From Mustelus asterias (taxonomy: Eukaryota): a DNA stretch of 64,000 nt. Numbering within the stretch: position 1 is the first letter of the stretch; each line of letters begins with the position of its first letter. Made by a program: the position numbers and the translations under genes. Under the pieces are notes generated by a model. That model was not told where the DNA came from. It did no database searches and saw only the letters and a list, made by a program, of their open reading frames with translations. The stretch is taken from positions 28,334,001 to 28,398,000 of the forward strand of contig NC_135812.1 in assembly GCF_964213995.1 (NCBI RefSeq), read 5' to 3'. Shown piece by piece: positions 3,885 to 61,811 of this stretch.

Positions 3885-6800
3885 GTCTGTTTTAACACTG
3901 CATTTCTATACCTGACACATACAAAATGAGTCTCTTGTAGTTCTGTCCTGCAATATTTCTCCACCTTTTCCTTCTCCTTTAGGGATCACTGGAAAGACTA
4001 ATGTGTATATTGAACAACACCACACCTCACTACATCAGATGCATCAAACCTAACATGGACTGCAAACCACTCCTTTTCAAATCAGAAGAGGTACTGTCAT
4101 AGAATAAGAAAAATTGCTCAAGTTGATGAGGTTATAAGCAATAAACTAGTTTTGGCTATTCAAATTATGCTGATAAAAATTGATTTAGATTGGTAATGTT
4201 AACGTGTCTCCTTTCAGAGGCTGTAAAATAGTGTTTTGGTTGAAAAATGTTCTAGTTAGCTTTACCTTTTTAGGTACATTATTTCAGTTAGTGCTGGCAG
4301 TTTAAACAATTGTTTTAGTCTACAGTTTCAAAATATCATTGTTAAATGGAGTTTTATTTTTGGAAGCTTCAGGTATTGTGTAATCACCTTCAGCAAAGTG
4401 GTATTTCAGAGTGTAAAATGTTTAATTTCTGCAACTAAATTATTTCCCAACATTTTGAATCGATGCTTTGGCTGTATACAATTTTACTGCAGAAGCACCA
4501 TGCTTTTGTCCACTAAAGCTAACCAGAAAGAAATTTACCTCAAACGTTTGAGAGTACTTAAGCTTTTTTTCACAAAGTAATCTGTTTGCTTTAGATTCTC
4601 AGCCAACTAGAAGCTTGTGGTATAGTTGAAACAATCAACATCAGTGCAGCTGGATTCCCTATTAGGTACGTTAGACGATTACCATGTTAGCTTTTTCAAA
4701 TGGTAAAAACTCATGGCTCCTTGTGTGCCATGTATTAATTACCTGAGTGGAATAAAGGAACTTGAGCTCATAGATCTTGACGTATGCCTAAAACTTAATG
4801 GAACATTATGTATAATAATTATGGCCTATTTGTTCCTTATGGGCTATGAATAACTAATTGTGGAAAGCACACACTAAAGAAGCTACAAATCAGTCAGAGA
4901 ATACTGATTGACTTGATGGATGGTTCCTTTGGGGAAGATATAGCAGTGTGAAATTTGCATTCCATTTGACTTGGATTAAAAACTGACTGTTTTGATTTGA
5001 CTTATTATTGTCACGTATTATCATACAGTGAAAAGTATTGTTTCTTGCGCACTATACGGACAAAACATACTGTTCATAGAGAAGGAAACGAGAGAGTGCA
5101 GAATGTAGTGTTACAGTTATAGCTAGGGTGTTGAGAAAGACCAACTTAATGCGAGGTCTGACAGCAGCATAGAAGAAGCTGTTCTTGAGTCGGTTGGTAC
5201 ATGACTCAGACTTCTGTATTTTTTTTCCTGAAGGAAGAAGCTGGAAGAGAGAATGTCTGGGGTGCATGGGGTCCTTAATTATGCTGGCTGCTTTGCCGAG
5301 GCAGCGGGAAGTGTAGATAGAGTCCATGGATGGGAGGCTGGTTTGTGTGATGGATTGGGCTACACTCATGACCTTTTGTAGATCCTTGCGGTCTTGGGCA
5401 GAGCAGGAGCTCTGCTCTGCATTATAAGTTATGCTTCATAAACTACATTTTTGTTCACATATGGTGACTAACAGTACTTTGCAATTTAGGGTCCCATACC
5501 AGCATTTTCTGGAGCGCTACGGACTTCTGAGAACGTATTGGCAACTGGATTTAAAAACTGCAGCTAGGTTTAATGGATGCTCTCCTGCCAAAAAGAGGAA
5601 AAGTTAGTCATATTTATTCTGTTGGTAATTTTAAGAGAAACGTTTATAACATAAACTTTGTGTAAACTCAGTGAAATATTCACAGTTTTAGTACTGGATT
5701 GATAACCTTATTTAGAGTAAAATAACTTTTTTAATATACTGGTTAAGTTTAATGTTGCATTTTTATAATTGGTACTATATTAAATTCATCCTCTTAATTT
5801 TCTCTCCTTTTTCCTTTGTTGTTTTTTTCTCTGTCTTTCTCCTTCCAGTTTCTGTCGATTTGAGTTCACCAATTCCTACATTTTCTGTCTGCTGCCTTCA
5901 ACTTGCTAATTGCCTCGACTTTGTTATGGTATCTCTGCCTTCTCACATCTGCCTATACTGAAGATGCTGTTGCCATGGAAATGGATATCGTTTGCCTTTG
6001 CAGGTTCATCATCAGCAGATGGCAGCACTGAGGCTTTGCAGTTCACTGCACGGGACATTCTCACGAATGTACTAGCTGGCCAAAATGTCACATCATCCTG
6101 TAAGCCAGCTGAGAACAGGTCATGTAACTCATTGGTACATTGTGGCAAAACAAAAGTGTTCATGACTCATAGTATGGTAAGTTGCCTAAATTATCTTGAA
6201 AAATTCTCTTTCCGGTTATGGATCTGATTTTTCATTTAGAAAAGGAGTAGGCTATTCAAACCCCCCAAACCATTCAAAGCATGCAAAACAGCCATGATCT
6301 CAAACTCCATCCACCTGCCCTGGTCTCATATGACTTCAGTAAGAAGTTTCACAACACCAGGTTAAAGTCCAACAGGTTTATTTGGTAGCAAATACCATAA
6401 GCTTTCGGAGCACTGCTCCTTCGTCAGATGGAGTGGAAATTTCCACATCGAGATTTCCACTCCATCTGACGAAGGAGCAGTGCTCCGAAAGCTTATGGTA
6501 TTTGCTACCAAATAAACCTGTTGGACTTTAACCTGGTGTTGTGAGACTTCTCACTGTGTTCACCCCAGTCCAACGCCGGCATCTCCACATCATGACTCAT
6601 ATGACTTAACATCCTTGGCTAACAAAAGTCTATCAATCTCAACCTTAGAATGATTAACTGAGCTAGTGTCTATTGGTTCTTGTGGAAGAGAATTACACAC
6701 TTATACCTGTTTTCTAACCTCTTTTGTGAATGCCCTGGCTCGAATTTTAAGATGACATCCTCTTCATAGAATCATACAATCTACAGTGCAGAAAGAGGCC

Positions 6801-9800
6801 ATCGTGCCTGCACCGACAACAATCCTATTGAGGTCCCACCGGGTTTCTTCCGGGTGCTCCAGTTTCCTCCCACGGTCCAAAGATGTGCGGGTTAGGTTGA
6901 TTGGCCACGATAAATTGTCCCTTAATATCGGGGGGGGGGGGAAGGTGTTTAGGAGGGCAAATATGTGTGGTTACAGGGACAGGACCTGGGTGGGATTGTT
7001 GTTGGTGCAGGCACGATGGGCCAATTGTTGTCGGTGCAGACACGGGGAGAATGTGCAAACTCTACACGTACAGTCACCTGAGGCTGGAATTGAATGCGGG
7101 TCCCTAGCACTGTGAGACAGCAGTGCTAACCACTGTGCCATTGTGCTGCCCCTATGTCTAAGGGGCTTGTCAAAGTCTATGTCTTGTCTAAGACATGCCC
7201 ACCAGCAGAAGAAATTTGTAAATTTCTTTGAGAATCCAAAAAACATAAAATTAAAAAAATTACAAGGATACATTGATACATTAAGCAAAAGGGGTAAAAC
7301 TGTGGCAGATGGATTTCAACATCGGCAAGTGTGAGACCATCCATGTTGTACCATAAAATAGTAGATCAAGTATTTATTTTTAATGGTATGAAGACATCCA
7401 TAGTGAAGGCCCAAAAGAGATTTAGGGGTCAACGTTTCTCAATCAAATCATCCCTTAGTCTTTTTTATTCCAGGAAGTGCAAGGCATTATGTCATCTCTC
7501 CTTGCAATCTAACCGTAGAACCCTGGTACCCTTCTGGCCAAATTATGCTGCATTGTTCCTAAAGCCAATGTAACATTTCTAAGGTGCATAACCCAAAACT
7601 GTATATAATACTCTAGATATGGCATAAGAAGGGCTTTGTATAGTTGTAACAATACCTCTTGCCCTTCATATTCTAGCTCTCTAGCAATGTATGTTCGCGC
7701 TTTTGATGTTTGGTTATACCTGACCCCTAAATCTCTTTGGACTTTCACTATGGCTTTACACCATTTAAAATAAATACTAAGTTTACACCATTTAAAAAAA
7801 TACTTGATCTGTATTTTATGGTGTAACATGGATGGTCTCACACTTGCCTATGTTGAAATCCATCTGCCACAGTTTTGCCCATTCACTTAAAGTATCAATG
7901 TATCTTTATAATTTTTAAATTTCATGCTTGCTTCATTCAAGAGATGTGGACTTCACTGGCTAGGCCAGCATTTATTGCCTATCCCTAATTCCCCTTGAGA
8001 AGGTGGTGGTGACCTGCCTTCTTGAGCCACTACAGTCCATGTAGAGTAGGTATATCCATAGTGCTGTTCAGAAAGGAATTCCAGGATTTTTACTCGGCGA
8101 CAGTGAAGGAATGGTAATATATTTCCAAGTCAGGATGGTGAGTGGCTTGGAGGGACACTTGCAGGTGGTGGTGTTCCCATGCACCTGCTGTCCTTGTCCT
8201 TCAAGATGTGGGTTTGGAAGATGATGTCTAAGGAGCCTTGGTGAGTTCCTGCTGTACTTCTTGTAGATGGTACACGCTGTGCCACTGTGCATTTGTGGTG
8301 GAGGGGGTGAATGTGCCAGTCAAGTGGGCTGCTTTGTCCTGGATGGTGTCAAGCTTCTTGAGTGTTGTTGGAGCTACATTCATCCAGACAAGTGGAGAGT
8401 ATTCCATCACACTCTTGTCTATTCTTCCACCAACTTTGTGTCATTGGCAAACTTGGGAATATGGCTTTCTATTTAACTCATTACTAAGTATAATGAAATA
8501 GTTGGGGCAGCACAGTGGTTAGCACTGCTCCCTCACAGCGCAGGGGCCTGGTTTCGATTCCCAGCTTGGGTCACTGTCTGTGCGGAGTTTGCACATTCGC
8601 CCCGTGTCTGCGTGGGTTTCCTCCGGGTGCTCCGGTTTCCTCCCACAGTCCGAAAGACGTGTTGGTTAGGTACATTGGCCATGCTAAATTCACCCTCAAT
8701 GTACTCAAACAGGTGCCTGAGTGTGGCGACTAGAGGATTTTCACAGTAACTTTATTGCAGTGTTAATGTAAGCCTACTTCTGACACTAATAATTAAATTT
8801 TAAACCATGCAGGTAAATGATTTGCCTTCAATTTCATGAGCTTTAATTTTTAGCTGATTATCTTTTTATTTGAAACTTTATCCAACATCTTTAAGTCCAT
8901 ATAAACCACATTCACAGACATTCCTTTGCCTCCTACTTTTGAAGTGTAGTCATTATTGCAAAGCAGATTATGAAAGGATGCAAATATTTTAAAGGGTCAG
9001 TAAATGTTTACATTATTAAATCCCTTTTAGCTCGAGTTGCTTGAAAGTGCAAGGAGTCAAACACTTTCCAAGAAAGCACTTTGTATTCAATGTAGTTGGA
9101 GAAGATATCGTCGGAGAAAATTAGCACGATTGAGGCGAGCAGCAACTATCATTCAAGCAGGCAAGTGTTACACCCTCTCAGGTCATCTTCTAAGGGATCT
9201 TCGTGTTGAAATGAAACACAATTCACTCCAGGGATTAGTGTTTGCCTCAAGCATTCCTATCACAGGTTTATCAGGAAATCTCCCTCTGCTGTCTAACAAG
9301 TTGCCTGAACTCAGCCTTGGAAGCATTGAATTATTGTGACATTAGTTATTTTTCTCAGTTCCTCATTAACTTTTGGAATTTCCCAGTTAGCTTTAAATTA
9401 GGAAAATAACGCAAGTGTTTTAGTGCCACAAAGAGCTGAATTGATGATCCCTTTGCATACAACATTGGGCCCAAATTTGCAACCTAAATCCAAGAGAATA
9501 TTGGAACAGTTACAGGCCATTAAGCACCTCATGCCTGTTCCACTATTCAGTAGATCAGAGATGACCTGTACTTCAACTCCATTTATCTGCCTTTGATCCA
9601 GACTCCTTGATTTCCCTTTATCTAATGAAAATAGGTCTACGTTGAAAATTTAAGTTGAAGCAGCAATCGCAACCTTTTTGGAGAGTGAGTTCCATATTTC
9701 CATTACTGGTGATCGAGAGTAGACTGATGGGGTGGTAATTAGTTGGGTTGGATTTGTTCTGTTTGTTGTGTACAGGACATACCTAGGCAATTTTCCACAT

Positions 9801-12800
9801 TCCACAGATGCCAGGGTTGTAGCTGTACTGGAACAGCTTGGCCAGGGGCAGGGCAAGTTGTGGAACACAAGTCTTCAGTACTATTGCCAGACTCTTGTCA
9901 AACCAATAGCCTTTGCAGTATCCAGTGCTTTCAGCTTTTCTTGATAACGTGTGGAATGAATTGAATTGGCTGAAGGCTGACATATGTGATGCTGGGGACC
10001 TCTGGAGGAGGCTAAGATGGATCATCCACTTGGCACTTCTGGCTGAAGGTTGTTGCGAATGTTTCAGCCTTGTCTTTTGCAACAATGTACTGGGCTGCTC
10101 CATAATTGGGGATGGTTAAATTTTGTGGACCTTCCTCCTTCAGTGAGTTGTTTAATTGTGCATCACCATTCATGGCTTGGTGTGGCAGGATTACAGAGCT
10201 TCGATCTGATCTGATGGTTATGAAATTGCTTAGCTCTGTCTATTACTTGCTGGTTTTGCTGTTTGGCAGGCAAGTAGTCCTATGTTGTAGCTTCACCAGG
10301 TTGACACCTCATTTTTAGATACCATGTCCTCCTGCACTCTTCATTGAACCCAGGGTTGAACCCCTAGCTTGGTGGTAATAGTAGAATGGGGAATATGCCA
10401 GGCCATGAGGTTACAGATTGTGGTCGAGTACAATCCTGCTGCTGCTCATGGCCACAGTGCCTCAAGGATTTCTACTATCTGAGGATGCTGGAATCGGAAA
10501 CAAAAACAGAAAATGCTGGAAAATCTCAGCAGGTCAGATGGCCTCTGGGGAGGGAGAATGGAGCCTACTTTGCGAGTTTGTAGCTCTGATGAAGGGTCAC
10601 CCAGACTCAACATTGGCTCCATTCTCTCTCCACAGATGTTGTCAGACCTGCTGAGATTTTGAATTAAGTGTTGCTGTTATACAACTGTTCTCCAGTGCTT
10701 ATATTAAAAGAGAAGCAAGAGAAAGACATTAAGTAATTCAATCTGGTTCCTAAGCTATCTGTTCCGGCTGTTCAGACCAAAAAACCATGTGCACAGCTGT
10801 CCATATTAGATGCTTGATATGTTTGTTTCCCTCACCTCCCCTGTCCCAACCTCAAGTTTAATTTTTATTCTCCCCCTGCCCGACCTGCCAATCCTGGCTT
10901 CCAGTGTCAGACTCACTTCAGCTACCCTCACCACCTAACCCAGCTCCACCATCCCTAACTCAATTCAAAATTTTGACAGTCGGTTCTGCACGTCACAGAC
11001 CTAATGACAAACATCAAGATACATAAGTTCTGGCCGACTTATCAACAAGCTGACTGGCTAAAAATATGTCATGCATAAGGTGTGGAGTTCCTGTAACACA
11101 TTGGGACGTGATAGACTCCCAAAATAATTTTCTAAGTGACTCTTGCCAAATGTAACACTTGCTCTTCATTTTTAATTTGCCAGAAAATTGGTAGTAGCAG
11201 CTATTAATCATTCTGCAAATGTTCCTTGTCCAGCCAAGTCTGCTACCTCCCACATACATGCTGACATATGCACAAATGGGCCTCTCAACTTCAGTTTCCA
11301 ACTGAATACAGGCAAACTTATTTCGTATTAAATTATGTAGGACAAAAGGCCTATCAGTTGGTTTAAAGTTTTATATTGATGTAGGTTGTAGCAATTCATT
11401 GCCTGTTTTTACAACCAGTGCATTCTTGCAAGTTTACAGTTAATTTATTTGTTTCTCTGCAGCTATTAGATCGTGGTTGACCAGTCGATGGATTAAAAAG
11501 CTCCATCATTCTGCCATGGTGCTGCAACGAGCATGGAAAACCTGGAAAGTGAGTTGCAACATTGAAATTAAAAATGCTGCTGTATCTAACTTAACTGAAT
11601 ACCGGAATGCAGTTCAAAATTAATTTTTTAAGTTACTGAAACTGCCTTTCTGAAGAGCTAAATTTTATCAAATTTTAAAATTTACTTACATACACGTTTT
11701 GATCCCAAAGTCTGGCATGACAGTGGATATTGCATCAGCAGCATGGTGGCACAGTGATTAGCACTGCTGCCTCACAGCGCCCGGGACCTGGGTTCGATTC
11801 CCGGTTTGGATCACGTTCTCCCCGTGTCTGCATGGGTTTCCTCTGGGTGCTCTGGTTTCCTCCCACTCTCCAAGGATGTGTGAGTTAGGTGGATTGGCCA
11901 TGTTAAATTGCCCTTAGTGTCAGGGGTCTAGCTAGGGTTATGGGGATAGGGTCTGGGTTGGTTTGTGGTCAGTGTAGACTCGATGGGCCAAGTGGCCTCC
12001 TCCTGCACTCTGATTCTATGAGACTTCTGTAAAATGAATAAATCCCATTTTTTTGTGGTACCAATGTAAATTCCAATATATTGAAGTTTTGAGTTTCTTT
12101 GAGTAATCAGCTGCAAAATAAAAAATCCTGGCATTCATTCAGCATGAATTGCTGCAGTGTAAGTTTCTGAATCCATATATTTCTTTAGCGTGTACTGAAC
12201 GATAGAAAGAAAAATAAAATTAATTTTTATTTTAAATAACCTTTTATTATATCTTTGAGCTGTCCCATGGATCTTTCACATTAGTGAATTATTTTGGAGT
12301 GTAGTCACTTGTTCAGGGGAAAGAAGCATGTGATTTATCTCATACACAAGTGTAATTAGGGAACAGTTGATCTATATTTTGGTTGTGATGGTTGATTGTG
12401 GAATGTTGGCCAGGATGCCGTGAGAACTTCCAGTTCCCTTTTCCTACATAACAATGGGTCTACTACAAAACAAAAACCTTTAGTTGTAAAGTGTGTTGTG
12501 ACATGCTAAGAACATTATTTGTTATATAAATGCAATATTGTTCTTTCCTTTCTCTTTTAATGGAGCCATTGCACCTTTATTGCATTCACTGGATACTTTT
12601 TAAATGCCTATTCGAAAAGACAGCATCTCTGACAGTAGTGCACTGCGACGTTAGCTTATATTATGTATTCAGGTCCTGGAATGGGGCAAACTCACAACCT
12701 TTCTGACTCTGAGTTACCAAATGAGCCAAGCAGGCACATAAACTCAGCTATTCAACTAATCTCTTCTTTTTAATTGCTAAAATCTTTAGATTAAAATGGA

Positions 12801-20072: not shown

Positions 20073-20266
20073 CTAGGAGGCAAAAATGTCATTTTCTTGC
20101 TCTGGGGGTTCAACTATTTGTAAACACTGATCTGCAAATTCCACAAAAATTGGTTCCTGCATGACTGTCTTCATGATGCTTTCTTTATCCTCTGCCTTGT
20201 CTACTGTTAATAGCAACTGTTTAAGGTGAGGGTTGCAAAGTAGATTCTTCAACTCGTTGGATTCTG
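20073..20266 (-). CDS. ZNHIT3: ZNHIT3 exon 5 (ESNELKNLLCNPHL...EPPEQENDIFAS*)
   Basis: NAGNAG acceptor; NPHL and MQEP.FVEFAD.CL.IVEP motifs; TAG at 20075-20073. Confidence 0.95.
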
Positions 20267-26200: not shown

Positions 26201-28171
26201 TGCACGCGGAGGCTGGCGGGGTGAAATGTGAGAACAAGGGGGACTCTATCCTTGCTCTGGGAGAGGGGGGAGGGGTGAGGGCCGTGACGCGGAAGAAGGA
26301 CTGCACGCTGTTGAGGGTCCTGTCGATAACTGTAGATGGGAATCCACGGTTGAGGAAAAAGGAGCACATATTAGAAGCACCACTTTGGAAATTGGCATCA
26401 TCGGAACAAATCTGACGGAGACAAAGGAGCTGAGAAAAAGGGATGGAGTCCTTACAGGATGTGGGGTGTGAAGAGCTGTAGTCCGGACAGCTGTGGGAAT
26501 CAGTGGGCTTTTAATGGATATTGGTAGATAGCCTATTGCCAGAAATGCAGACAGAAAGGTCAAGGAAGGGAAGTGTTTGAGATGGACCAGGTGAAGGCGA
26601 TGGAGGGGTGGAAACTGGATGCAAAGTTGATGAATTTTGAGAGATCTGGACGAGAGCATGAAGCGGCACCAAAATAGTCATTGATGTACTGGTAAAGGAG
26701 TTGTCCCGGTCCCCTCCCACAAAGAAAGCTGAGGGGTGACTTGATAGAGCTGTACAAAATTATGAGGGCAAGGATAGAGTTGATAGGATAACACTGTTTC
26801 CCTTGGTGGCGAATTCTAGAACCAGGGGACATAGATTCAAAATAAGTGGCAGTAGGGGACATGATTAAGAACTTTCTTTATGGAAAGGGTGGTGGGTATC
26901 TGGAATTCATTGCTTGAATTGGTGGTGGAGGCAGAGAACCGAAACTCTTTTAAAAAGTACCTACTTCTGCACCTTAAGTGCTGTAAGCTACAGGGCTATG
27001 GGCCAGTGCAGCAAGATGGGATTAGAATGGGCACCCGAGTGTCCTCAGGCTGGCAGGGCAAGATGGACCAAATGGCCACCGTGTGTTCGAACTTTTCTAT
27101 GATTGTTCCTCAGACCAGAGAGAAGTAACCAGTGGCTAGTGTTGGGAGCTCTACACTCGATCAATATATGTTGATTACTTGGACTTGGGTATACAGGGCA
27201 TAAAGTCAGACTGTACAAAACTCAAATGGGATGGCGCAGTGGTTAGCACTGCTGCCTCAGTGCCAGGGATCCAGGTTCAATTCCCAGCTTGTGTCACTGT
27301 CTGTATGGAGTCTGCATGTTCTCCGTGTCTGCGTGGGTTTCCTCCGGGTGCTCTGATTTCCTCCCACAGTCCAGAAGGCGTGCTGGTTAGGCACATTGGC
27401 CATGCTAAATTCTCCCTCAATGTACCCGAACAAGCACTGGAGTGTGGCGACAAGGGGATTTTCACAGTAACTTCATTGCAGTGTTAATGTAATCCTACTT
27501 GTGACAATAATAAACTTCAATTTAATTATTCAATAGGGAGAAGAATAGTAACAGACTTCAGGAGGTCATAAACAGCCAAGCGAATGAATTAGAACAAACT
27601 TTATAAGTGTAGAAGGTTCAATTAACCATAAACACCACAGAAAGAAGGTTATTAGCAAAAGGTACCAAGGATTTTTACAAAAAGGTGCACCAATTTATAA
27701 TGATCTGTCTGAAAGGCTGCTGGGAACAGACTGATTAGAAACTTTCCAAAGGGGAGTGATGAATATTTACCCCAGCTGCAGAATGTGCTCCAGTAATTGG
27801 ACTCAACCCAGCGCTGGGGCTCAGAGTGAGACACTGACTGACACCTGGGTCAGTAACTCGGCTCTTCAACCGGGAGGGTCTCACAGCGGAGCCAGGCCCC
27901 GGCCAGAGCCCCCCGCGGCCCCGGCCAGAGCCCCCCCCCCCCTCCTCCCTCCTTCCCCCGCCACGATCCAGGTCAGGCGGGCGGGTTGGAAGCGGGGCCC
28001 GGTTACCAGGCCCGAGCTCCCGTCTCTGTGAGCAGCGGGCCTAAGCTGGGCCGGTGCGGCCGCGGATTCGAGTTGTAACCGATTGGGGCCGGGTTGTACT
28101 CACTAGCGCAGCTCACAGCGCGGACACCGGTATTTGGGCGGCTGCTCCCCGCACACGCGGCACATCCTCAT
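20073..28171 (-). CDS. ZNHIT3: Zinc finger HIT domain protein 3 (box C/D snoRNP assembly factor), 153 aa; complement join(28171-28104,24298-24267,23630-23544,22867-22787,20266-20073)
   Basis: Exons of 68+32+87+81+194 = 462 bp form one frame: [33 protein letters not shown] (zf-HIT) ... DEESDRVPLEKLRLLAESNELKNLLCNPHLKQLL ... MQEPIFVEFADQCLQIVEP. All introns are GT-AG. Confidence 0.97.
20595..22282 (+). mobile_element. CR1 LINE 3' part (same family as 16340-19195), interrupted by a SINE
   Basis: RT ORFs 20582..21313 and 21685..22227; 3' end matches 16340-16400 in reverse. Confidence 0.95.
21309..21645 (-). mobile_element. HE1-like SINE nested in CR1 (TSD GCATAT)
   Basis: Full head, core and tail; GCATAT at 21303-21308 and 21676-21681. 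Confidence 0.92.
22787..22867 (-). CDS. ZNHIT3: ZNHIT3 exon 4 (HHSTDDIFDDDDEESDRVPLEKLRLL)
   Basis: aacag|GA ... G|gtatgc; acidic stretch followed by DRV motif. Confidence 0.93.
23544..23630 (-). CDS. ZNHIT3: ZNHIT3 exon 3 (DCKPRATDSV...QQNGN)
   Basis: ttactag|AT ... G|gtaaag; phase 1-1; 87 bp open. Confidence 0.85.
24267..24298 (-). CDS. ZNHIT3: ZNHIT3 exon 2 ([10 protein letters not shown])
   Basis: 32 bp, ttttcag|T ... G|gtatgg. Confidence 0.93.
24972..25010 (-). ncRNA. Minimal hammerhead motif, U3-A8 core variant
   Basis: AGCU-UUGACAA-A-GGGUC agcug GACUC-GAAA-CA-UC-AGCU at the 3' end of the Penelope element. Confidence 0.65.
25225..25565. repeat. G-rich minisatellite (GGGGGGCCCGAAGGAAAGGGGGT)n inside the Penelope 3' region
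   Basis: About a dozen units with variable G-run length. Confidence 0.9.
27228..27520 (+). mobile_element. V-SINE, alternative tail
   Basis: As 8505-8803. Confidence 0.85.
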
Positions 28172-39782: not shown

Positions 39783-40039
39783 TAACAAATTAACAATGCA
39801 AGAAAGATTACAGTGATAGTAAGTAACGAGGAAGCAGAGACAAACCAAGAAACCCAAGTAAATATGTCCCAAAACAGTAACCCATCTTTGCTTTAGTACT
39901 GACCACTCTCTTCCAGCCTCACTGTCTAGTGCATTGGCTCTAATCCAAGGCCATTCTCATTAACATGAAAACATAGTATGTTTTTAAAAATCTTAACCAT
40001 TGAATTTTGCCAATAAAACATGTTCCCATTAAGCAACCT

Positions 40040-49582: not shown

Positions 49583-49885
49583 TTTAAAGTTTATTTATTA
49601 ATGTCACCACCGAGTAGGCTTACATTAACACTGCAATGAAGTTACTGTGAAAATCACCTAGTCGCCACACTCCGTGTGTGGGTAGACTGAGAGAGAATTT
49701 AGCATGACCAATGCACCTAACCAGCACGTCTTTCAGACTGTGGGAGGAAACTGGAGCACCCGGAGGAAACCCACACAGACACGGGGAGGACGTGCAGACT
49801 CCGCACAGACCCAAGCCGGGAATTGAACCCGGGTCCCTGGCGCAGTGAGGCAGCAGTGCTAACCACTGTGCTATCGTGCTGCCCC
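49583..49885 (-). mobile_element. V-SINE, alternative tail, just 3' of the GPCR stop
   Basis: As 8505-8803, reverse strand. Confidence 0.88.
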
Positions 49886-49940: not shown

Positions 49941-50921
49941 TCAGGGATTATTTGCTGTTTGGATGTGGACCTTGTTGTTAAAAGGACATCGGCAGGAACC
50001 GATGGCGTTTCCCAAGCCCTTTAATTTGTGGGTATAGACTATGGGATTAACTAAAGAGTTTAGCGTTATCATTATCGCGGTGAAGTTTCTGAAAACATAG
50101 ATGTGGATATGAAGGTCTCTGAGGGGAGAGTGATCGAATGCATCCCAGAGAACGCCGGAGAAGAATGGGGCATAGGAGACAACAGTCATTACCCAAATAG
50201 TCACACTTATCTTTGCTACATGTGCTTCGGCCAGTCTGTAACTGTTACTATCATGTCCTTGTGTTGCAATGATGCACTTCTGTCTCTTTAGAATGACAAT
50301 GATGGCAATGTAAGTGAACATTAAGCAAGAGAAAGTCACCACACAGTTAGGGATGGTAATAAAGATCAAGTAATCGAGGCACAGAGGCCGGTAGAGAGCA
50401 GAAGATGCTCCGTCTCCTTTGCCCAAGCAATTCCAACCCATCAGAGGCAGTCCACCAAAGATGCCGGCCAGAAACCAGCTGGCCCCAGCTGCCAGCCAGG
50501 TCTGGCAATGGGAGATGCGGTATCTGGGTCTCAAACAGTCAGCCACTGTGAGGTATCGCTCAACGCCAATGCTCATCAGGTTGTAGACGGTCGAGAGGAT
50601 GGAGATGGCGAGGATGGCGTAGGCATGCAGCAGCTCCGGCGAGCCGTACACCGTGTCCTCCGGCTCGGCGAGGAAGAGCAGCGCGATCCAAAAGGAAGAG
50701 GAGCTGGAGAGGAGGTCGGACAAGGCCAGGCTGCCAAAGAGGATGAAGATGGGTTTGTGCTGGTGCCTTGCAGAGACGATGGCGAGGATCACCGCACTGT
50801 TGCAGATGATGGAAATGACATTGATGACCAACTGCGGGATTGCCAGCGACAGAACTAAGCTGGAGCTCCAAGTGACAGAGTTGTTGGGGTGTCCCAGAGA
50901 GCCGTTTGACACGCGGTTCAT
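49941..50921 (-). CDS. Single-exon class A GPCR, lipid/MECA group (S1P/LPA/cannabinoid/GPR3-6-12/melanocortin-related orphan), 326 aa
   Basis: Open ORF from the ATG at 50921 (MNRVSNGS..., N-glycosylation sequons) with seven hydrophobic segments; motifs HKPIF..SLALSDLL, ERY, GWNC, SYAP, NSLVNPIVY. Confidence 0.92.
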   Translation of the reverse strand: MNRVSNGSLGHPNNSVTWSSSLVLSLAIPQLVINVISIICNSAVILAIVSARHQHKPIFILFGSLALSDLLSSSSSFWIALLFLAEPEDTVYGSPELLHAYAILAISILSTVYNLMSIGVERYLTVADCLRPRYRISHCQTWLAAGASWFLAGIFGGLPLMGWNCLGKGDGASSALYRPLCLDYLIFITIPNCVVTFSCLMFTYIAIIVILKRQKCIIATQGHDSNSYRLAEAHVAKISVTIWVMTVVSYAPFFSGVLWDAFDHSPLRDLHIHIYVFRNFTAIMITLNSLVNPIVYTHKLKGLGNAIGSCRCPFNNKVHIQTANNP

Positions 50922-51249
50922 CTTGTTGAATGTGCAGGGGGGGTGTCCCCGAATATAAATCCAGATTAAAATCAAACAGGTATCCTCTCTGCAAACTTCA
51001 CCGCGAAGGTTTAGTGGACAAACGCTCCCAGTTCCTGGTCGGTCTGACGCTGTTATAGAGTAGAAGTGCCCTCACTCGGTTTCCTTCCCAGTGGGACAGA
51101 TTCAATAATCGCCTTATCTTTATGTAGACGGAGGAGGCTAAATATATATTTGAGTTGCAGAGTCACTACACAGCAAATTAATATAACCTCCCCGTCACTG
51201 GCAATATCGGGGCAGCACAGTAATGCGAACAGCACCATATCAGGAGTGA

Positions 51250-51390
51250 CTTGATTTATTATTGTCACATGTATTGGGATACAGAGAAAACTAATGTTTC
51301 TTGTACACTAGGCAGACAAAGCTTACCGTTCATAGAGTACAAAGGGGAGAAGGAAAGTAGAGGGTGCAGAATATAATGCTACAGTCAAAG
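51250..51390 (-). mobile_element. Rex1/Babar-type tail fragment
   Basis: TTGATTTATTATTGTCACATGTATT... matches the tail of the other copies. Confidence 0.7.
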
Positions 51391-51539
51391 CGAATGCTAT
51401 AAAATTGGGAGTAGTTGGGATTCTACAAGGCAGGGGAAATATTTCTTTGATGAAGCAATGGGGAGGCTGGATGAGTGTAATGCAGGTAATGAATTATTTA
51501 AAAAATGCTAAAGTACCACATGACAAGTGCATGATAAAA

Positions 51540-52820
51540 TAGGACTGAGTCAGTGCTGCATTCGTCAAGGGGAGGTCATGTCTGACAAATCTGTTAGAGT
51601 TCTTTGAGGAGGTAAGAAGGAAGTTAGATAAAGGAGAACTAGTGGACGTAATTTACTTAGATTTCCAAAAGGACTTTGACAAGGTGCCGCATAGGAGACT
51701 GTTAAATGTTAAGAGCCCATGGTGTAAAGGGTAAGATCCTGGCATGGATAGAGGATTGGCTGACTGGCAGAAGGCAGAGAGTGGGGATAAAGGAGTCTTT
51801 CTCAGGATGGCAGCCGGGTGACTAGTGGTGTGCCTCAGGGATCGGTGCTGGAACCACAGCTTTTCACAATATACATTTACAATTTGGAAAAAGGAACTGA
51901 AGGCACTGTTGCTAAGTCTGCAGATGATACAAAGATATGTAGAAGGACAGGTAGTATTGAGGAAGCGTGGGGCTGTAGAAGGACTTGGACAGGTTAGGAG
52001 GGGGCAAAGAAGTGACAGATGGAATACAATGTGGAAAAGTGTGAGGTTATGCAATTTGGAAGGAGGAATGGAGGCATAGACTATTTTCTAAATGGGGAAA
52101 TGCTTAGGAAATCAGAAACACAAAGGGACTTGGGAGTCCTTGTTCAAGATTCTCTTAAGGTTAATGTGCAGGTTAATGTCAGCAGTTAGGAAGGCAAATG
52201 CAATGTTAGCATTCATATTGAGAGGGCTAGACTACAAGAGCAGGGATGTACTTCTGAGGCTGTATAACGCTCTGTCAGACCCCTTTTGGAGTATTGTGAG
52301 CAGTTTTCGGCCCCGTATCTAAGGAAGGATGTGCTGGCCTTGGAAAGGGTCCAGAGGAGGTTCACAAGAATGATCCCTGGAATGAAGAGCTTGTCATATG
52401 AGGAACTGTTGGGGATTCTGGGTCTGTACTCGTTGGAGTTTAGAAGGATGAAACTTATAGGATACTGCGAGGCCTAGATAGAGTGGATGTGGAGAGGATG
52501 TTTCCACTAGTAGGAAAAACTAGAACCAGAGGCCACAACCTCAGGCTAATGGGACGATCCTTTAAAACAGAGATGAGGAGGAATTTCTTCAGCCAGAGAG
52601 TGGTGAATCTGTGGAACTCTTTGCTGCAGAGGCTGTGGAGGCCAGGCCATTGAGTGTCTCTAAGATAGAGATAGATAGGTTCTTGATTAATAAGGGGATC
52701 AGGGGTTATGGGGAAAAGGCAGGAGAATGGGGACGAGAAAAATATCAGCCATGATTGAATGGCAGAGCAGACTCGATGGGCCGAGTAGCCTAATTCTGCT
52801 CCTATGTCTTATGGTTTTAT
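51540..52820 (+). mobile_element. Degenerate CR1 LINE 3' part
   Basis: Frameshifted RT pieces (LERVQRRFTRMIPG); TCTTATGG tail. Confidence 0.88.
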
Positions 52821-53639
52821 GATGAATCTGTCAGCAAAAATGAAGCCAATGGGAAGAAATGGGCGATGGTTGTGTGGATATGAAATTGGTCAAATCAGAG
52901 AGTAGAGTTGAATGGTTGCTTTTCAGAATGGAGAGAATTACAAAGTTGTATTCCCTAAGGGCCAGTAATAGACCCACTGCTCTTTTTGTTATATAATGTG
53001 ATCTGGACTTGGGTACACAGGTTTGCAGCTGATACAGAATCATAGAATGGCTACAGCACAAAAGGAGACCATTCGCTCCATCATATCCATGCTGAGTCTT
53101 TGTAAGAACAATTCACTTGATGCCACTCCCCAATCTTTTCCCCCTAGCCTTGCAAATGTTGCCTCTACAGATAACTATCCAATCCTCTCAATAAATATTT
53201 GGAGGGATAATATTTGCAGCGTTATGAGGAGGGGGTGTGATGGGGGGGGCGGGGCTGCTGCTAGTGACTAAAAGAATGGGCACAGGAACAAAGGGCTGAA
53301 TGGTCTCCTTTCATACTATACTATTTTATAACTCTGTGAAACGATGGATGGGGTGTTTTATGTTATTCACTTTTGAGTGCTTCATGAAGTTAAGAAAGTA
53401 CCATTGAGATATTCTGACTCCTTTATTTTCATTGTATTATTATTGTTTTCACCCCCATTGAACTAAAAATAACAAAATTGCCTTGGAGCAATTATTTTGG
53501 ATTCTATGTTGCAGGGATCATACCAGGGACTGAAGACAATTCCTGAGTTGGAGGAAATTTCTACTCTTCTTCCATTATCCTGCCATCTTCAACAATTTAT
53601 GCAGATATGTCCATTAGTTTCTTTGTTGCTGTAACTCCT

Positions 53640-54440
53640 TTAGAACCACACACTTTATTTATATTGTATTTCTTCAGTCTTTCTGCCAAAATATACCACT
53701 TCATGTAGGCCTGCATTAAATGTCATCTGCCCATTCCACCACTTTGTTTTTATCCCTTGAAGTCCATCACTATCATCCTCACAGTTCATGATAGTTTTAA
53801 GTTTTGTGACATCTGCAAATTTTGAAATTGTTCCCTGGAGATTATTCGAGATTATTAATATATTTCAAGAAAGGCATTAGTCCTTGTATTGAAACCTGGG
53901 GAATCTCACTGTATACATATTGAGGATCCCACTGTACATCTACCTCCAGACTGAAAAACAACCATTCACCACCATTCAGTTTCCTGTCACTCAGCCAACT
54001 TCAGACCCATGCTGCCATTGTCCTTTTCAGTCTCTAGCCTTCAACTTTTTGGGAAGCCGATATTGTGGCACTTTATCAAACATCATTGTTAAAGTCCATT
54101 TTTATACCACATCAACTCTATTATCCTTCTCAACTCTCACTGTTACCTCATCAAGAATTCAGTCAAGTCAGTTAAACATGATTTATCTTTCCTTAATTAA
54201 TCCATACTTGTCTGAGTAATTATTAATTTTGTCCAAGATTATAAATTCTAAAAGCTTTTGGACACCAGGGTAAATTTACTATAACTGCTGAGTTTAACCT
54301 CTCACCTGCTTTACAACCAAGATCTAACATTGGCAATTCACCAGTTCTCTGGCACCACATCCTTATATAAAGAGGATTAGAACATCATGGCCAATACTTC
54401 CACAAATTCACCCTTACTTTCTTCAGCATCCTATCTGGGT
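53640..54440 (-). mobile_element. Highly decayed CR1 RT fragment
   Basis: Recognisable RT nucleotide remnants (e.g. tgacatctgcaaat, ggcactttatcaaa). Confidence 0.5.
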
Positions 54441-54446
54441 TGGGTA

Positions 54447-55227
54447 CAGGAATGAGATAGAGAACCTGGTGAACTGGTGCGGCAACAATGTCAACAAAAC
54501 GGAGGAGATTGTTATCGACTTCAGGAAGCGTAAAGGAGAACATGCCCCTGTCTACATCAACAGGGACGAAGTAGAAAGGATTGAGAGCTTCACGTTTTTA
54601 GGTGTCCAGATCACCAACAACCTGTCCCTGTCCCCCCATGCTGACACTATTGTTAAGAAAGCCCACCAACGCCTCCACTTTCTCAGAAGACTAAAGAAAT
54701 TTGGCATGTCAGTTACAACTCTCACCAACTTTTACAGATGCACCATAAAAAGCATTCTTTCTGGTTGTATCACAGCTTGGTATGTCTCCTGTTCTGCCCA
54801 AGACCGCAAAGAACTACAAAAGTTCATGAATGTAGCCCAATCCATCACACAAACCGGCCTCCCATCCAGTGACTCTGTCTACACTTCCCGCTGCCTCGGC
54901 AAAGCAGCCAGCAAAGTTAAGGACCTCACGCATCCCGGACATTCTCTCTTCCACCTTCTTCCTTCGGGAAAAAAATACACAAGCCTGAGGTCGTGTACCA
55001 ACTGACTCAAGAACAGCTTCTTCCCTGTTGCTGTCAGACTTTTGAATGGATTTACCTTGCATTAAGTTGATCTTTCTCTATACCCTAGCTATGACTGTAA
55101 CACTACATTCTGCACTCTCTTGCTTCCTTCTCTATGAACGGTATGTTTTGTCTGTAAAGCGCGCAAGAAACAATACTGTTCACTGTATGTTAATACATGT
55201 GACAATAATAAATCAAATCAAATCAAA
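54447..55227 (+). mobile_element. Rex1/Babar-type LINE 3' end
   Basis: ORF 54469..55005 (NVNKTEEIVIDFRK, FLGVQIT, KKAHQRLHFLRRLKKF); (TCAAA)n tail. Confidence 0.88.
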
Positions 55228-55594
55228 ACTTATCAACTTTTAAGGAATGCTACTATTCAGGAGTTGACAAAAGTTGATAGTAATATTTATTTACATCCTG
55301 CCATTTGAACTCAAATCCCATTCCAGGTTCATATACTGGATGGAATCTGTCAGAACCCTTCCTGCTGAAATATTTTTCCTTCAGTAGTTAAAGCAACGAT
55401 TTGATCCAGGAAAATGTAAACTCTACGTGATCCCATTGAGTGAGGTTGATGAGGTGAATAGCTTTCTCTTGTTTCATACCTTTGTCTGTTTTGGTAGCTT
55501 GGCTTCAATATTCAGCAGCAGTTGGTGTAGGAAATAGGATTAGAATTTTTCAACATCTGAATAATTTCCAGTTTGAAAAGTAAAACAACTAATA

Positions 55595-56200
55595 ATAACA
55601 GAACATTGAATACAGGAGTTGGGATGTCTTGTTGAAATTGTAAGGCCACACTTGGAATACTGTGTACAGTTCTGGGCACCCTATTATAGAAAGGATATTA
55701 TTAAACGAGAAAGAGTGCAGTAAAGATTTAGATGTTACCGGGATTTGATGGTTTGAGTTATAAGGAAAGGCTGGATAGACTGGGACTTTTTTCTCTGGAG
55801 CGTAGGAGGCTTAGGGATGATCTTATAGAGGTCTATAAAATAATGAAGGGCATAGATCAGCTGGTTGTCAGCATATTTTCCCAAAGGTAGGGGAGTTTAA
55901 AACTAGAGGCATAGGTTTAAGGTGAGAGGGGAGAGATACAAAAGGGTCCAGAGGGGCAATGTTTTCACATAGAGGGTGGTGAATGTCTGGAACAAGCTGC
56001 CAGAAGTAGTAGTAGAGGCAGGTACAATTTTGTCTTTTAAAAAGCATTTAGACAATTACATAGGTAAGATGGCTATAGAGGGATATGGGCCAAACGTGGG
56101 CGATTGAGACTAGCTTCGTGGTTAAAAAAAAGGGTGGCATGGACAAGTTGGGCCGAAGGGCCTGTTTCCATGCTGTAATCCTCCATGACTCTATGACTCC
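55595..56200 (+). mobile_element. CR1 3' end
   Basis: RT C-terminal remnants and ATGACTCTATGACTC tail. Confidence 0.85.
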
Positions 56201-56863
56201 ATAAATATGATTTTGTTTTAAAAATCCATGGGAGTAAAGTCATAATTCAGAACAGATTGTACTGTTGTTTTAAAATATATCGAGTTGGTGTTTACAGTCC
56301 AGAAATCAACTAAAATTAAGATTTTAATGTTTAGCTTTTAATGTTTTAGATTTAATAACATATTTTGAACATTATATACAGAGTAGATGGAATGTCATGG
56401 GATGCTATTATATAATCCAACTAAAGGTGAAGATGGAAATATGCTGTGTAATATTATCATATGAAGTCATTTCACATATATCACATTACAATTCTAATGG
56501 AGATGTTAACACATGTAATAAATCACAGTCGATAATATAGACAACAGAGGAATTTCATCAGAGCGCATTGTGATGTCTCAAAACGCATTTTCCAAGATCA
56601 CAACTCAGCTCTCTCCTGTTTAGTTCAGACATTCATGGGTAAATTGTCCTGCTCCCAGAGACAGAGGTGTCACCAAACAGTGCCCAAGCAACTTGTAATA
56701 TTCCACACTTTCAATTCAGCCGGATGGGAATTTCTAAAATATAAACTGAAATTATTTTGATTTCAAAGTTAGAATCCGGGGGCTGTCAGTTTAGATTTTA
56801 GGAAATAGCAGAACTCAGGTTATGAATAAACTTCCCACCCGCTCAGCAGCTGCTGACCTCTCT

Positions 56864-57583
56864 CTGCTCTGCTCTGCCCAAGACTGCAAGAAACTACAAA
56901 AGGTCGCGAATGTAGCCCAGTCCATCGTGCAAACCAGCCTCTCATCCATTGACTCTGTCTACACTTCCCGCTGCCTCGGCAAAGCAGCCAGCATAATTAA
57001 AGACTCCACACACCCTGGACAGTCTCTCTCCCACCTTCTTCCGTCGGGAAAAAGATACAAAAGGTCACGTTTAAAGTTTATTAAAAAGTTTATTTATTAG
57101 TCACAAGTAAAGCTTACATTAACACTGCAATGAAGTTACTTTGAAATTCCTCTCGTCGCCACACTCTTTGTGCCTGTTTGGGCCAATTCACCAAAACCAG
57201 CATGTCTTTTGGACTGTGGGAGGAAACCAGAGCACCCAGAGGAAACTCATGCAAACACGAGGAGAACATGCAAACTCCATATAGGCAGTGGCCCAAGGTG
57301 GGAATCGAACCCGGATCCCTGGCACTGTGGGGCAGCAGTGCTATCCACTGTGCCACCGTGCCCGCCCAACTCAAGAACAGCTTCTTCCCTGCTACCATCA
57401 GACTTTTGAATGGACCTATCATGCTTTAACTTGATCTTTCTCTACACCCTAGCTATGACTGTAACACTACATTCTGCACTCTCTCGTTTCCTTCTCTATG
57501 AACTGTATGCTTTGTCTGCATAGCACGCAAGAAACAATACTTTCCACTGTACACTAACATAATAATAAATCAAATAAAAAATC
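56864..57583 (+). mobile_element. Rex1/Babar-type 3' end interrupted by a SINE
   Basis: [21 protein letters not shown]; resumes at about 57367 after the SINE. Confidence 0.85.
57070..57366 (-). mobile_element. V-SINE, alternative tail, nested in a Rex element
   Basis: As 8505-8803, reverse strand. Confidence 0.85.
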
Positions 57584-57587
57584 AAAA

Positions 57588-57677
57588 GTCTTCCCTCCTC
57601 CCTTTCTCTCTCCCCTCCTTCCCTCTCTCCCTCCTTCCCTCTCTCCCCCCTTCCCTCCTCCTTCCCTCTTCCTCTTT
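57588..57677. repeat. Polypyrimidine (CT-rich) tract
   Basis: About 90 bp of C and T only. Confidence 0.85.
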
Positions 57678-58059
57678 GCACTGGGTGTGAAATGGCAATT
57701 TCAGTCCCGGCGCAATTTGCGATGCAAAAGAGAGCATTGTTTTGGTTTTGTTACGCATTTTCACAGGTCATGGCCGCCAAACCCCCAGATTATCCTTGCT
57801 ACGCATCTCGGCGGCTTATAGTTTAGCCATCATTTCAATTTTATTTCGTTATTTTATTCATTTTGTCTATTTTAAAAGCAAGCGTGAACAGCGGGGCGGG
57901 AAAATCAGCATTGATAGGATGCAACCAGGCAGGGGGCTGCATCTCTGACATTGAACCTGCAATTGGCAGCTGCTGCTGATCTCTGCAAGCATCCTTTTCC
58001 AAATCGCTGCTGGGGACAGAGTGAGGAAACATATCCCAATGTGAAATTGCTCTCATTCC

Positions 58060-58315
58060 AGCCCCTCGAGCCGCTGTCCCGGAACTAAGAGCATCCAGGA
58101 TCCCAGCTCCTCCCGCATTGCGCCCTGTAGCCGGCTCCATTGGGAAGGGATGTGCTGAGAGGTGGTGCCAGGGGGTGGAGCCTGGTCTTCCTGCCGCGGG
58201 TCTGAGTGTCCCCGGGCAGAAATAAAAAGGAGCCACCTCTCAGTTGATGCAACATCTCTGCTCCCGTCAATTTACACCCCAGAGGAACGGAGAGGGGGAG
58301 AACAGGGCCAAGAGA
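58060..58315 (+). promoter_or_regulatory. Probable CA4 promoter/5' UTR
   Basis: GC-rich stretch with GGGGGTGGAG at 58171-58180 and TATA-like AATAAAAA at 58221-58228, about 90 bp before the ATG. Confidence 0.5.
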
Positions 58316-58373
58316 ATGCACCCATTTACCTTCTTACTCCTCAGCTCTTTGCCCTTCCTGACTTCGGAAGCTG
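58316..58373 (+). CDS. CA4: CA4-like exon 1 (signal peptide)
   Basis: AGAATGC start, hydrophobic core, consensus gtaagt donor. Confidence 0.8.
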
Positions 58374-61300: not shown

Positions 61301-61811
61301 TCAACATTAGTGCAAGTGCAGCATTTCTCCATTTTGTTTATATATTTAAATAAAGAACAGAGGGTAAAGTAGCTGTGAGTTGATAATTTCTTGGCGGATT
61401 GGGTGAAATAAGATAAAAATTCAACAAAATAAACCATGTTCTTAAAGAATGACAGAATAAGTCAATAAGAACAATTCTGCATGTGCTTGACTCTGTTAAC
61501 TGATAACAATCAATATAATGAGTCCAGAACATTGTACTTTAATAATGCAGGTAGGTTAAATTTGTATGCAAGCCCCACAATATTACTGAAACTAGACTTT
61601 ATTTGAAGATTATTGTAAATTTGCTTAGGTATCCAGTGTACACTTGGGGGCAGGTAGTTAAGGATAGCTTTAGATTAAAGGCAAAGAAGCCCCTGACAAA
61701 CTAATAACTATAGAATCTTTTGGAATCATTGGGGAAATTTAAGAAATTAACTAACTTTGTTTTGTTTTTGTCCAGGAGACTGGTGCTATGATATTCAGGA
61801 CGCTAAATGTG
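58316..61811 (+). CDS. CA4: Carbonic anhydrase 4-like, first two coding exons; join(58316-58373,61776-61811); gene continues beyond the window
   Basis: Exon 1 encodes signal peptide MHPFTFLLLSSLPFLTSEA with a G|gtaagt donor (58 bp, phase 1). Exon 2 reads ccag|GDWCYDIQDAKC-G|gtaagg, with the WCY motif of extracellular alpha-CAs. Car4 neighbours Znhit3 in mouse (recalled synteny). The paralogue assignment (CA4 vs CA15-like) rests on that synteny. Confidence 0.82.
58620..58800 (-). mobile_element. Penelope-derived terminus (family of 6337-6595) with a hammerhead motif at 58706-58742 (G12A decayed)
   Basis: UCAC-CUGAGGA-A-GGAGC agc GCUCC-AAAA-GC-UC-GUGA on the minus strand, followed by the shared terminus. 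Confidence 0.75.
58843..59070 (+). mobile_element. V-SINE, alternative tail, 5'-truncated
   Basis: Core and tail present. Confidence 0.82.
61776..61811 (+). CDS. CA4: CA4-like exon 2 (DWCYDIQDAKC)
   Basis: Branch-point-like ctaac, T-rich tract and cag acceptor; gtaagg donor; phase 1-1. Confidence 0.85.

What the first reader, a model, noticed from the sequence alone, without database searches (positions are those of the whole stretch)
49941..50921. Intact orphan lipid-type GPCR between ZNHIT3 and CA4
Seen: a 326-aa intronless 7TM ORF with GWNC after TM4 and no Cys at 3.25, as in the S1P/LPA/cannabinoid/GPR3-6-12/melanocortin group. It has A3.28-Y3.29 instead of the R-E/R-Q pair that S1P and LPA1-3 receptors use for lipid phosphate binding, SYAP instead of CWxP in TM6, and lacks the usual second ECL2 Cys (GWNCLGKGDGASSALYRPLC). 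Recalled: Myo19, Znhit3 and Car4 are neighbours in mouse with no GPCR between them. Inference: an old receptor lineage kept in cartilaginous fish and lost in mammals, with unknown ligand and possibly constitutive activity.
Basis: partly seen in the sequence, partly recalled or inferred. Interest (0 to 1): 0.72.

Follow-up and report, generated by a model that had tools for sequence, protein, structure and literature searches.

The report
Unnamed lipid-type receptor absent from placentals
This shark gene encodes an intact, unstudied cell-surface receptor related to the lipid-sensing LPA, S1P and cannabinoid receptors; it is kept as one copy from sharks to birds and marsupials, was not found in placental mammals, is mislabelled in databases as an LPA receptor, and probably senses a different lipid.

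Summary
The ORF is real: 326 aa, intronless, minus strand. Leu3.25, Ala3.28-Tyr3.29, GWNC and SYAP are as described. Two corrections. (1) The second ECL2 cysteine is shifted, not missing: C181 is present in 124 of 124 named relatives. (2) The gene is not specific to cartilaginous fish or lost in all mammals: orthologues occur in coelacanth, characiform and gymnotiform fish, amphibians, reptiles, birds and marsupials, and their tree follows the species tree. No placental or monotreme member appeared. It is no orthologue of a solved receptor: best score 77 bits, against 524 for a chimaera S1P1 control; family profiles rank LPA1 first. The activation motifs are intact, and Glu6.30 opposite Arg3.50 is invariant, which argues against constitutive activity. 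Arg/Lys7.35 is invariant while Arg3.28 is absent. Best reading: a ligand-gated receptor for a single-chain lipid other than LPA or S1P. Ligand, G protein, expression and exact branching are untested. Databases hold it as 'LPAR-like' or 'LPAR1'; ten literature searches found no description.

The parts
49941..50921 (-). Single-exon coding sequence of the 326-aa class A lipid-type orphan GPCR
   Evidence: orthologues
50619..50624 (-). Ala3.28-Tyr3.29, in place of the Arg-Gln/Glu pair of LPA1 and S1P receptors
   Evidence: 3.28 is Pro 82, Ala 34, Val 6, Leu 2 of 124, never basic; Tyr3.29 in 124 of 124
50379..50438 (-). ECL2, GWNC...S.LY.PLC, with C165 and C181 (inferred intra-loop disulfide)
   Evidence: C181 124 of 124; C165 121 of 124; the three marsupials that lack it have a Cys five residues later
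50226..50228 (-). Glu6.30 (E232), inferred ionic-lock partner of Arg3.50
   Evidence: 124 of 124; lock role is inferred from general class A knowledge
50166..50177 (-). TM6 SYAP (Tyr6.48 instead of the Trp toggle)
   Evidence: Tyr6.48 and Pro6.50 in 124 of 124; 6.47 Ser 119, Ala 5
50142..50144 (-). Asp6.58 (D260), shared with LPA1, S1P1, S1P2 and CB1
   Evidence: 123 of 124; aligned Asp seen
50085..50090 (-). Arg7.35-Asn7.36 at the top of TM7, the only conserved basic pocket residue
   Evidence: Arg 118 + Lys 6 of 124; Asn 123 of 124
50034..50048 (-). NPxxY motif (NPIVY)
   Evidence: Tyr7.53 124 of 124, Pro7.50 123 of 124
28104..28171 (-). First coding exon of a HIT zinc-finger gene (ZNHIT3 by synteny), 21.8 kb downstream of the receptor
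   Evidence: Pfam zf-HIT E 6.3e-08, above cut-off; donor GT seen
4595..11548 (+). Exons of a myosin gene (MYO19 by synteny): 4595-4665, 6004-6176, 11463-11548
   Evidence: exon scan; myosin Va match E 2.3e-4; Myosin_head and IQ E 0.006, below cut-off; the middle exon had no myosin hit
58316..58373 (+). Signal-peptide-like first exon of a probable membrane carbonic anhydrase gene (CA4-type), divergent from the receptor, 7.4 kb between start codons
   Evidence: sequence and donor site; no database match; identity inferred
61776..61811 (+). 36-base second exon reading DWCYDIQDAKC, phase-compatible with the first
   Evidence: no PDB or Pfam match; WCY motif recalled for CA4/CA15-type enzymes

Best explanation
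A functional, single-copy class A GPCR forming its own orthogroup within the EDG/cannabinoid lipid-receptor cluster, nearest to LPA1-type receptors. It predates the shark/bony-fish split and was lost on the placental line. Shown: intact ORF, orthogroup, taxon spread, residue conservation. Inferred: it rests inactive (Arg3.50-Glu6.30 lock, Asp2.50); a single-chain amphipathic lipid other than LPA or S1P, most likely with a small carboxylate or neutral head (fatty acid, N-acyl amide or monoacylglycerol type), places its head near Tyr3.29, Asp6.58, Arg7.35 and Asn7.36 under a disulfide-tied ECL2 and its tail in the hydrophobic TM3/5/6 core; Tyr6.48 stands in for the Trp toggle; Tyr5.58 and Tyr7.53 relay activation to a G protein, most likely Gi/o or G12/13 as in the nearest relatives.
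For: Sharp score gap: 47 of 72 hits at E 1.5e-45 or better, then S1P1-type proteins at 1e-17 or worse. Family is one side of a 100/100 branch against 8 S1P1 rows, and its inner branches follow vertebrate groups. Profiles rank LPA1 127.7, S1P1 100.6, CB1 92.7, GPR3 78.5, MC5R 76.3 bits; a second, fish-weighted profile gives the same order. Shared cluster marks: no Cys3.25, GWNC, Y-L-x-F at the start of TM5, Asp6.58. Signalling residues in 124 named rows: D2.50 124, E3.49 124, R3.50 123, Y5.58 124, E6.30 124, P6.50 124, Y7.53 124. R3.28A abolishes LPA1 calcium signalling and K7.36A lowers it (PMC4542628, passages). No placental or monotreme name among the 72, 46 and 120 listed rows, the last with a marsupial-weighted query.
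Against: No ligand, coupling or expression data. The single protein scores S1P2/S1P1 (76.7, 75.9) above LPA1 (65.7); the TM6-7 piece matches CB1 and vasopressin V2 about equally and insignificantly; the fold comparison ties GPR6, CB2 and adenosine A1 at Z 28; so 'nearest LPA1' is a ranking, not a resolved branch. The tree had only S1P1 as outgroup. Asp6.58 and Arg7.35 may pair with each other and not with a ligand. The word-based search misses real members (only 39 family rows) and 19 of 139 hits were not listed, so absence from placentals is not proven.
Confidence: 0.6

Rival explanations
1. A divergent but true LPA (or S1P) receptor that holds the phosphate with Arg7.35 and Tyr3.29, so the database names are roughly right.
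For: LPA1 is the best characterised match to both family profiles; the basic residue at 7.35 is invariant and lies one position from LPA1 K7.36, a head-group contact.
Against: Position 3.28 is non-basic in 124 of 124 and R3.28A silences LPA1; the short N-terminus has no conserved Lys; scores are far below those between S1P and LPA receptors (239 bits).
Confidence: 0.15
2. A constitutively active, Gs-coupled receptor working like GPR3/6/12 or GPR185, with activity set by expression or a permanently bound membrane lipid.
For: Intronless, short N-terminus, no Trp6.48; GPR6 is among the tied top fold matches (Z 28.4, rmsd 3.6, 275 aligned).
Against: GPR3 and GPR6 score 77-78 bits against 128 for LPA1; Glu6.30 invariant; the fold ranking does not separate class A receptors.
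Confidence: 0.15
3. The rebuilt pocket serves a non-lipid agonist (small polar metabolite, ion or short peptide).
For: Many pocket positions differ from all solved relatives (Y3.29, Y6.48, P191, R7.35-N7.36); melanocortin and adenosine receptors show such switches in this group (recalled).
Against: Top sequence matches are all lipid receptors; the deep pocket is hydrophobic (I3.36, L3.37, F6.51, F6.52, V6.55); the His residues of the shark ECL3 are not conserved.
Confidence: 0.1
4. The clade has already been catalogued under another provisional name, such as GPR148B/GPR209 of Rinne et al. 2019.
For: GPR148B is listed for gar, fish, coelacanth, reptile, birds and a marsupial, a similar spread.
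Against: That clade is placed next to GPR148 among 'other families' and has no amphibian; this family matches EDG/cannabinoid receptors. The MECA table lists no clade with this spread except GPR185, described as near GPR3.
Confidence: 0.07

Closest known systems
LPA1 (LPAR1; EDG-type LPA receptors LPA1-3)
   Same: Best match to the family profile (127.7 bits); W..LV.GLG start of TM1, GWNC, Y-L-x-F-x-x-I-x-N in TM5, Asp6.58, basic residue at the top of TM7, no Cys3.25.
   Different: About 22% identity; no Arg3.28 or Gln3.29; SYxP for CWTP; second ECL2 Cys moved seven residues on; one ECL3 Cys or none instead of a pair; coding exon is intronless (LPA1-3 have a coding intron, recalled).
S1P1-S1P5
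   Same: Best single-sequence matches (S1P2 76.7, S1P1 75.9 bits); GWNC, Asp6.58, intronless coding region (recalled).
   Different: No Arg3.28-Glu3.29; separate 100/100 branch from S1P1; a real chimaera S1P1 scores 524 bits against S1P1.
Cannabinoid receptors CB1/CB2
   Same: GWNC, Asp6.58 and the AK start of TM6 align; acidic 6.30 as in CB1 (recalled); 92.7 bits to the profile.
   Different: No Trp6.48, short N-terminus, 19-24% identity.
GPR3/GPR6/GPR12 and the non-placental orphans GPR185/GPR186
   Same: Orphan, intronless members of the same group; GPR185 has a similar spread including a marsupial (PMC6504862).
NCBI/UniRef automatic entries 'lysophosphatidic acid receptor 1-A/1-B/3-like', 'LPAR1 protein, partial'
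   Same: These are this gene's orthologues.
   Different: The names are similarity labels and vary by species (LPAR1-, LPAR2-, LPAR3-, S1P1-, S1P2-, GPR6-, MC5R-like); 49 of 120 listed rows are bird entries named LPAR1/LPAR3, partial.

Membership tests
Class A (rhodopsin-like) GPCR | 7tm_1 match above cut-off; seven helices; N1.50, D2.50, E/DRY, W4.50, P6.50, NPxxY | tested here: met
   85.9 bits vs cut-off 30.5; model; motif counts
EDG/cannabinoid/GPR3-6-12/melanocortin lipid-type cluster (MECA) | No Cys3.25; GWNC after TM4 | tested here: met
   No Cys at 3.25 in 124 of 124; GWNC at 162-165
EDG/cannabinoid/GPR3-6-12/melanocortin lipid-type cluster (MECA) | Closest characterised relatives lie in this cluster | tested here: met
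   All 60 rows listed are S1P, LPA, GPR3/6/12, CB or MC5 receptors; add only adenosine receptors at the bottom
EDG/cannabinoid/GPR3-6-12/melanocortin lipid-type cluster (MECA) | Nested in the cluster in a rooted tree with all subfamilies | not testable with these tools
   Only S1P1 was on hand as a named outgroup
LPA1-3 | Arg3.28 and Gln3.29 head-group pair | tested here: not met
   Ala100-Tyr101; never basic at 3.28 in 124 rows
LPA1-3 | Basic residue at the top of TM7 (LPA1 K7.36) | tested here: inconclusive
   Arg/Lys at 7.35 in 124 of 124, one position off by simple count
LPA1-3 | Orthologue-level similarity | tested here: not met
   65.7 bits to LPA1, whereas even a chimaera S1P1 scores 239 to LPA1; LPA3 was not among the listed solved sequences
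LPA1-3 | Activation by LPA | not testable with these tools
   needs an assay
S1P1-5 | Arg3.28-Glu3.29 | tested here: not met
S1P1-5 | Orthologue-level similarity and grouping with S1P1 | tested here: not met
   76.7 bits at best vs 324-524 for the control; separate branch
GPR3/6/12 | Closest sequence relationship to GPR3/6/12 | tested here: not met
   77-78 bits, below LPA1, S1P1 and CB1
GPR3/6/12 | High constitutive Gs activity | not testable with these tools
   invariant Glu6.30 argues against it but is no measurement
Cannabinoid receptors | CWxP with Trp6.48 and orthologue-level similarity | tested here: not met
   Tyr6.48 in 124 of 124; 42-47 bits to CB1/CB2
GPR148B/GPR209 (Rinne et al. 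2019) | Sequence identity with the listed Ensembl proteins | not testable with these tools
   only identifiers and counts are given

The most novel reading that the evidence does not exclude
An undescribed further branch of the vertebrate lipid-receptor cluster, kept for the whole history of jawed vertebrates down to marsupials and lost in placentals, that reads a lipid mediator which none of the LPA, S1P, cannabinoid or GPR3/6/12 receptors serves. It would mark a lipid signalling axis that placentals dropped, hidden until now under wrong LPAR names.
Probability: 0.35. Interest if true: 0.72.

Novelty: new variant of a known kind. Interest (0 to 1): 0.5.

Why it matters
It is a ready-made deorphanisation target, present in Xenopus, anole, opossum, cavefish and many birds, with a pocket that differs from LPA and S1P receptors at the known head-group positions; its ligand would show how this receptor cluster changes specificity. 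It adds a receptor to the genes lost on the placental line. It also flags an annotation error: entries named LPAR1/LPAR3 in dozens of bird genomes are this gene, which can distort comparative or expression work on LPA signalling. Tempering this, non-human orphan GPCR clades are common (28 likely new orphans in PMC6504862, abstract) and nothing functional is shown here.

Tried and rejected
Pseudogene or chance ORF: rejected; 124 named relatives with conserved motifs, invariant sites confined to helices and ECL1/ECL2. dN/dS was not computed because no orthologous coding DNA was on hand. Second copy in the window: none. Atlas search: generic class A clusters at 0.96-0.97, uninformative. Fold searches: the model fits class A receptors broadly; Foldseek ranks S1P1, LPA1 and CB1 first and the VIA re-alignment ties GPR6, CB2 and A1, so neither places the family. 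TM6-7 alone: nothing significant (best E 0.03). Carbonic anhydrase catalytic exons: motif scans found none, so the gene probably runs off the window; exon 2 gave no hit. Proton sensing, suggested by the neighbouring carbonic anhydrase and three His in the shark ECL3: rejected, the His are not conserved. tRNA and Rfam scans: 0 and 0. Literature: ten searches gave no paper on this clade; the database names themselves occur in 0 papers. The chicken and Xenopus GPCR surveys mention no extra EDG-type receptor in the passages seen; their supplements were not read, nor parts 1 and 3 of the Rinne supplement, and most subscription papers are outside the library. Cluster membership of the exact protein, the identity of the unnamed profile hits, and the viral and metagenome collections stayed unchecked. 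No complex prediction was sent.

Full report
Observation. The window is repeat-rich vertebrate DNA; most long ORFs look like LINE reverse transcriptase or endonuclease pieces (recognised by eye). One ORF at 49941-50921 on the minus strand encodes 326 aa without interruption. It matches Pfam 7tm_1 (E 4.2e-24) and folds as seven helices plus helix 8 (pLDDT 78, pTM 0.77, 47-row alignment). It is single-copy in the window. Its nearest relative is from the catshark Scyliorhinus torazame (84%), so the window is shark DNA. Numbering from R122 (3.50), P252 (6.50) and P293 (7.50) confirms Leu3.25, Ala3.28-Tyr3.29 and SYAP.

Neighbourhood. A HIT zinc-finger exon starts at 28171 on the minus strand (E 6.3e-08). 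Myosin exons lie on the plus strand at 4595-4665 (myosin Va E 2.3e-4), 6004-6176 (no myosin hit) and 11463-11548 (IQ, E 0.006). At 58316-58373 and 61776-61811 on the plus strand are a signal-peptide-like exon and a short WCYD..C exon with matching phase; no database confirmed them, and they could be CA4 or a related membrane carbonic anhydrase. A dog gene list gives CA4, PSMG4, ZNHIT3, MYO19 in order with no receptor (PMC6668854, one passage). Synteny in other carriers of the gene could not be examined.

Relatives. The single-protein search gave 72 hits: 47 (self included) at E 1.5e-45 or better and 25 S1P1-type proteins at 1e-17 or worse. A family profile added gymnotiform and characiform fish (39 family rows of 46). 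A marsupial-weighted profile gave 139 hits, 120 listed, mostly birds, with turtles, crocodilian, squamates, amphibians including both Xenopus species, coelacanth and three named marsupials. No listed row is named from a placental or a monotreme. The index-free library search found five representatives above 200 bits, then 139 and 126.5 bits, of 8430 at E 0.001; that library has no names, so these stay unidentified. A tree of 28 family members and 8 S1P1 sequences splits the two at 100/100 and recovers cartilaginous fish (97/95), the four teleosts (100/100), amphibians (97/96), marsupials (100/100) and archosaurs (96/90). That is the pattern of a single orthogroup. Teleost members are on a long branch (33-36% identity). 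I used 28 of 124 named rows for the tree, chosen for taxon spread.

Not a known receptor's orthologue. The window protein scores at most 76.7 bits against solved receptors. The control, chimaera S1P1, scores 524 to S1P1, 324 to S1P2, 239 to LPA1, 117 to GPR3 and 108 to CB1. So this protein is further from every solved lipid receptor than S1P1 is from GPR3 or CB1. Family profiles rank LPA1 (127.7), S1P1 (100.6), CB1 (92.7), LPA2 (88.8, partial), GPR3 (78.5), MC5R (76.3), with the same top order. Against a firm LPA1 link: the single sequence prefers S1P2/S1P1, and fold comparison does not discriminate. Receptors without a solved structure were not covered by this test.

Anatomy. In 124 named rows (19 unnamed rows left out) the signalling core is intact: D2.50 124, E3.49 124, R3.50 123, W4.50 123, Y5.58 124, E6.30 124, P6.50 124, P7.50 123, Y7.53 124. 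Family-specific invariants are Y3.29, S174, Y177, C181, Y184, P191, W6.41 and Y6.48 (124 each), with D6.58 123, R/K7.35 124 and N7.36 123. Position 3.28 is never basic. In LPA1, R3.28, Q3.29 and K7.36 contact the head group; R3.28A gives no calcium response and K7.36A a weaker one (PMC4542628, passages). Hence LPA or S1P is unlikely to be the main agonist, although one basic anchor remains.

Cysteines. ECL2 holds two cysteines in 123 of 124 rows and three in one. The three marsupials that lose the GWNC cysteine gain one five residues later, which suggests a preserved intra-loop bond to C181. An N-terminal and an ECL3 cysteine occur together in 58 of 68 rows with a full N-terminus, are both absent in 9 (seven cartilaginous fish including the window, two lizards), and disagree in 1 (a tinamou); 56 rows lacked an N-terminus. 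The Fisher value (2e-10) is inflated by kinship: there are two or three independent events, the two lizards are related and have doubtful N-termini, and a third skink keeps a shifted ECL3 cysteine. An N-terminus-ECL3 disulfide in bony vertebrates, absent in sharks, is a fair inference, not a result.

Mechanism. Shown: a constrained class A receptor of the lipid-type cluster with a changed head-group site. Inferred, about 0.6: activation by a single-chain lipid other than LPA or S1P; low basal activity from the Arg3.50-Glu6.30 lock; coupling to Gi/o or G12/13 by analogy with LPA1, S1P and CB1 (the weakest step, about even odds). Rivals: atypical LPA receptor 0.15, constitutive Gs receptor 0.15, non-lipid ligand 0.1.

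Prior description. The proteins are in public databases under inconsistent automatic names; 49 of the 120 rows are bird entries called LPAR1 or LPAR3, partial. Rinne et al. 2019 (PMC6504862; abstract, passages, sections 11 and 45, supplement parts 2 and 4 of 4) list S1PR6, S1PR7, GPR185, GPR186, GPR119B and GPR187A/B as non-human MECA clades; none is described as LPA-like with this spread, but I could not compare sequences, so GPR185 and GPR148B/GPR209 are excluded only by their stated placement. The chicken survey states one-to-one EDG orthologues (PMC1472694, passages); the Xenopus survey did not subdivide the group (PMC2709155, one passage). Ten searches found no paper on the clade; the library lacks most subscription journals, and unread supplements may list it.

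Verdict. Interest 0.5, because it is a clean, testable orphan with a correctable annotation error, but one of many non-human orphan clades and without functional data.

Noticed in passing
library protein P0077: An unnamed 310-aa protein scores 139 bits to the family profile, above LPA1 (127.7); it may be a sister lineage or a fragment of a known receptor.
   Followed up: no
window 50501-51200: The 5' half of the receptor ORF has the highest CpG observed/expected ratio (0.72) of the 500-base bins from 44 to 64 kb; a TATA-like run lies near 51140-51150 on the minus strand and no ATG occurs in the 180 bases before the start. An AG directly before the ATG could also be a splice acceptor.
   Followed up: partly
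window 50921-58316: The receptor and the probable carbonic anhydrase gene are head to head, 7.4 kb apart; a TATA-like AATAAAAAG lies about 95 bases before the carbonic anhydrase start. Shared regulation is possible.
   Followed up: no
P0038, P0042, P0044 (marsupials): The GWNC cysteine is lost and a new cysteine appears five residues later; the marsupial branch is long (0.75), which may mark relaxation or change before the placental loss.
   Followed up: partly
P0047, P0074, P0222-P0225: Among ray-finned fish only characiform and gymnotiform members were found, on a long branch; none named from zebrafish, gar, bichir or acanthomorphs in three searches.
   Followed up: partly
bird rows: 49 bird entries named LPAR1/LPAR3, partial (mostly 281 aa) are this gene; chromosome-scale bird contigs carrying it are about 11-20 Mb, microchromosome size.
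   Followed up: partly
window 61776-61811: The WCYD..KC exon resembles, from recall, CA15-type as much as CA4-type sequences; the paralogue identity is open.
   Followed up: partly
window 16685-22227, 35347-37002, 40020-42419, 62092-63327: Several long LINE reverse-transcriptase or endonuclease-like ORFs up to 551 aa, suggesting recent CR1-type copies; 32% of the window is repeated within itself.
   Followed up: no
window 49620-49885: A SINE-like repeat sits about 55 bases past the receptor stop codon, within the likely 3' untranslated region.
   Followed up: no
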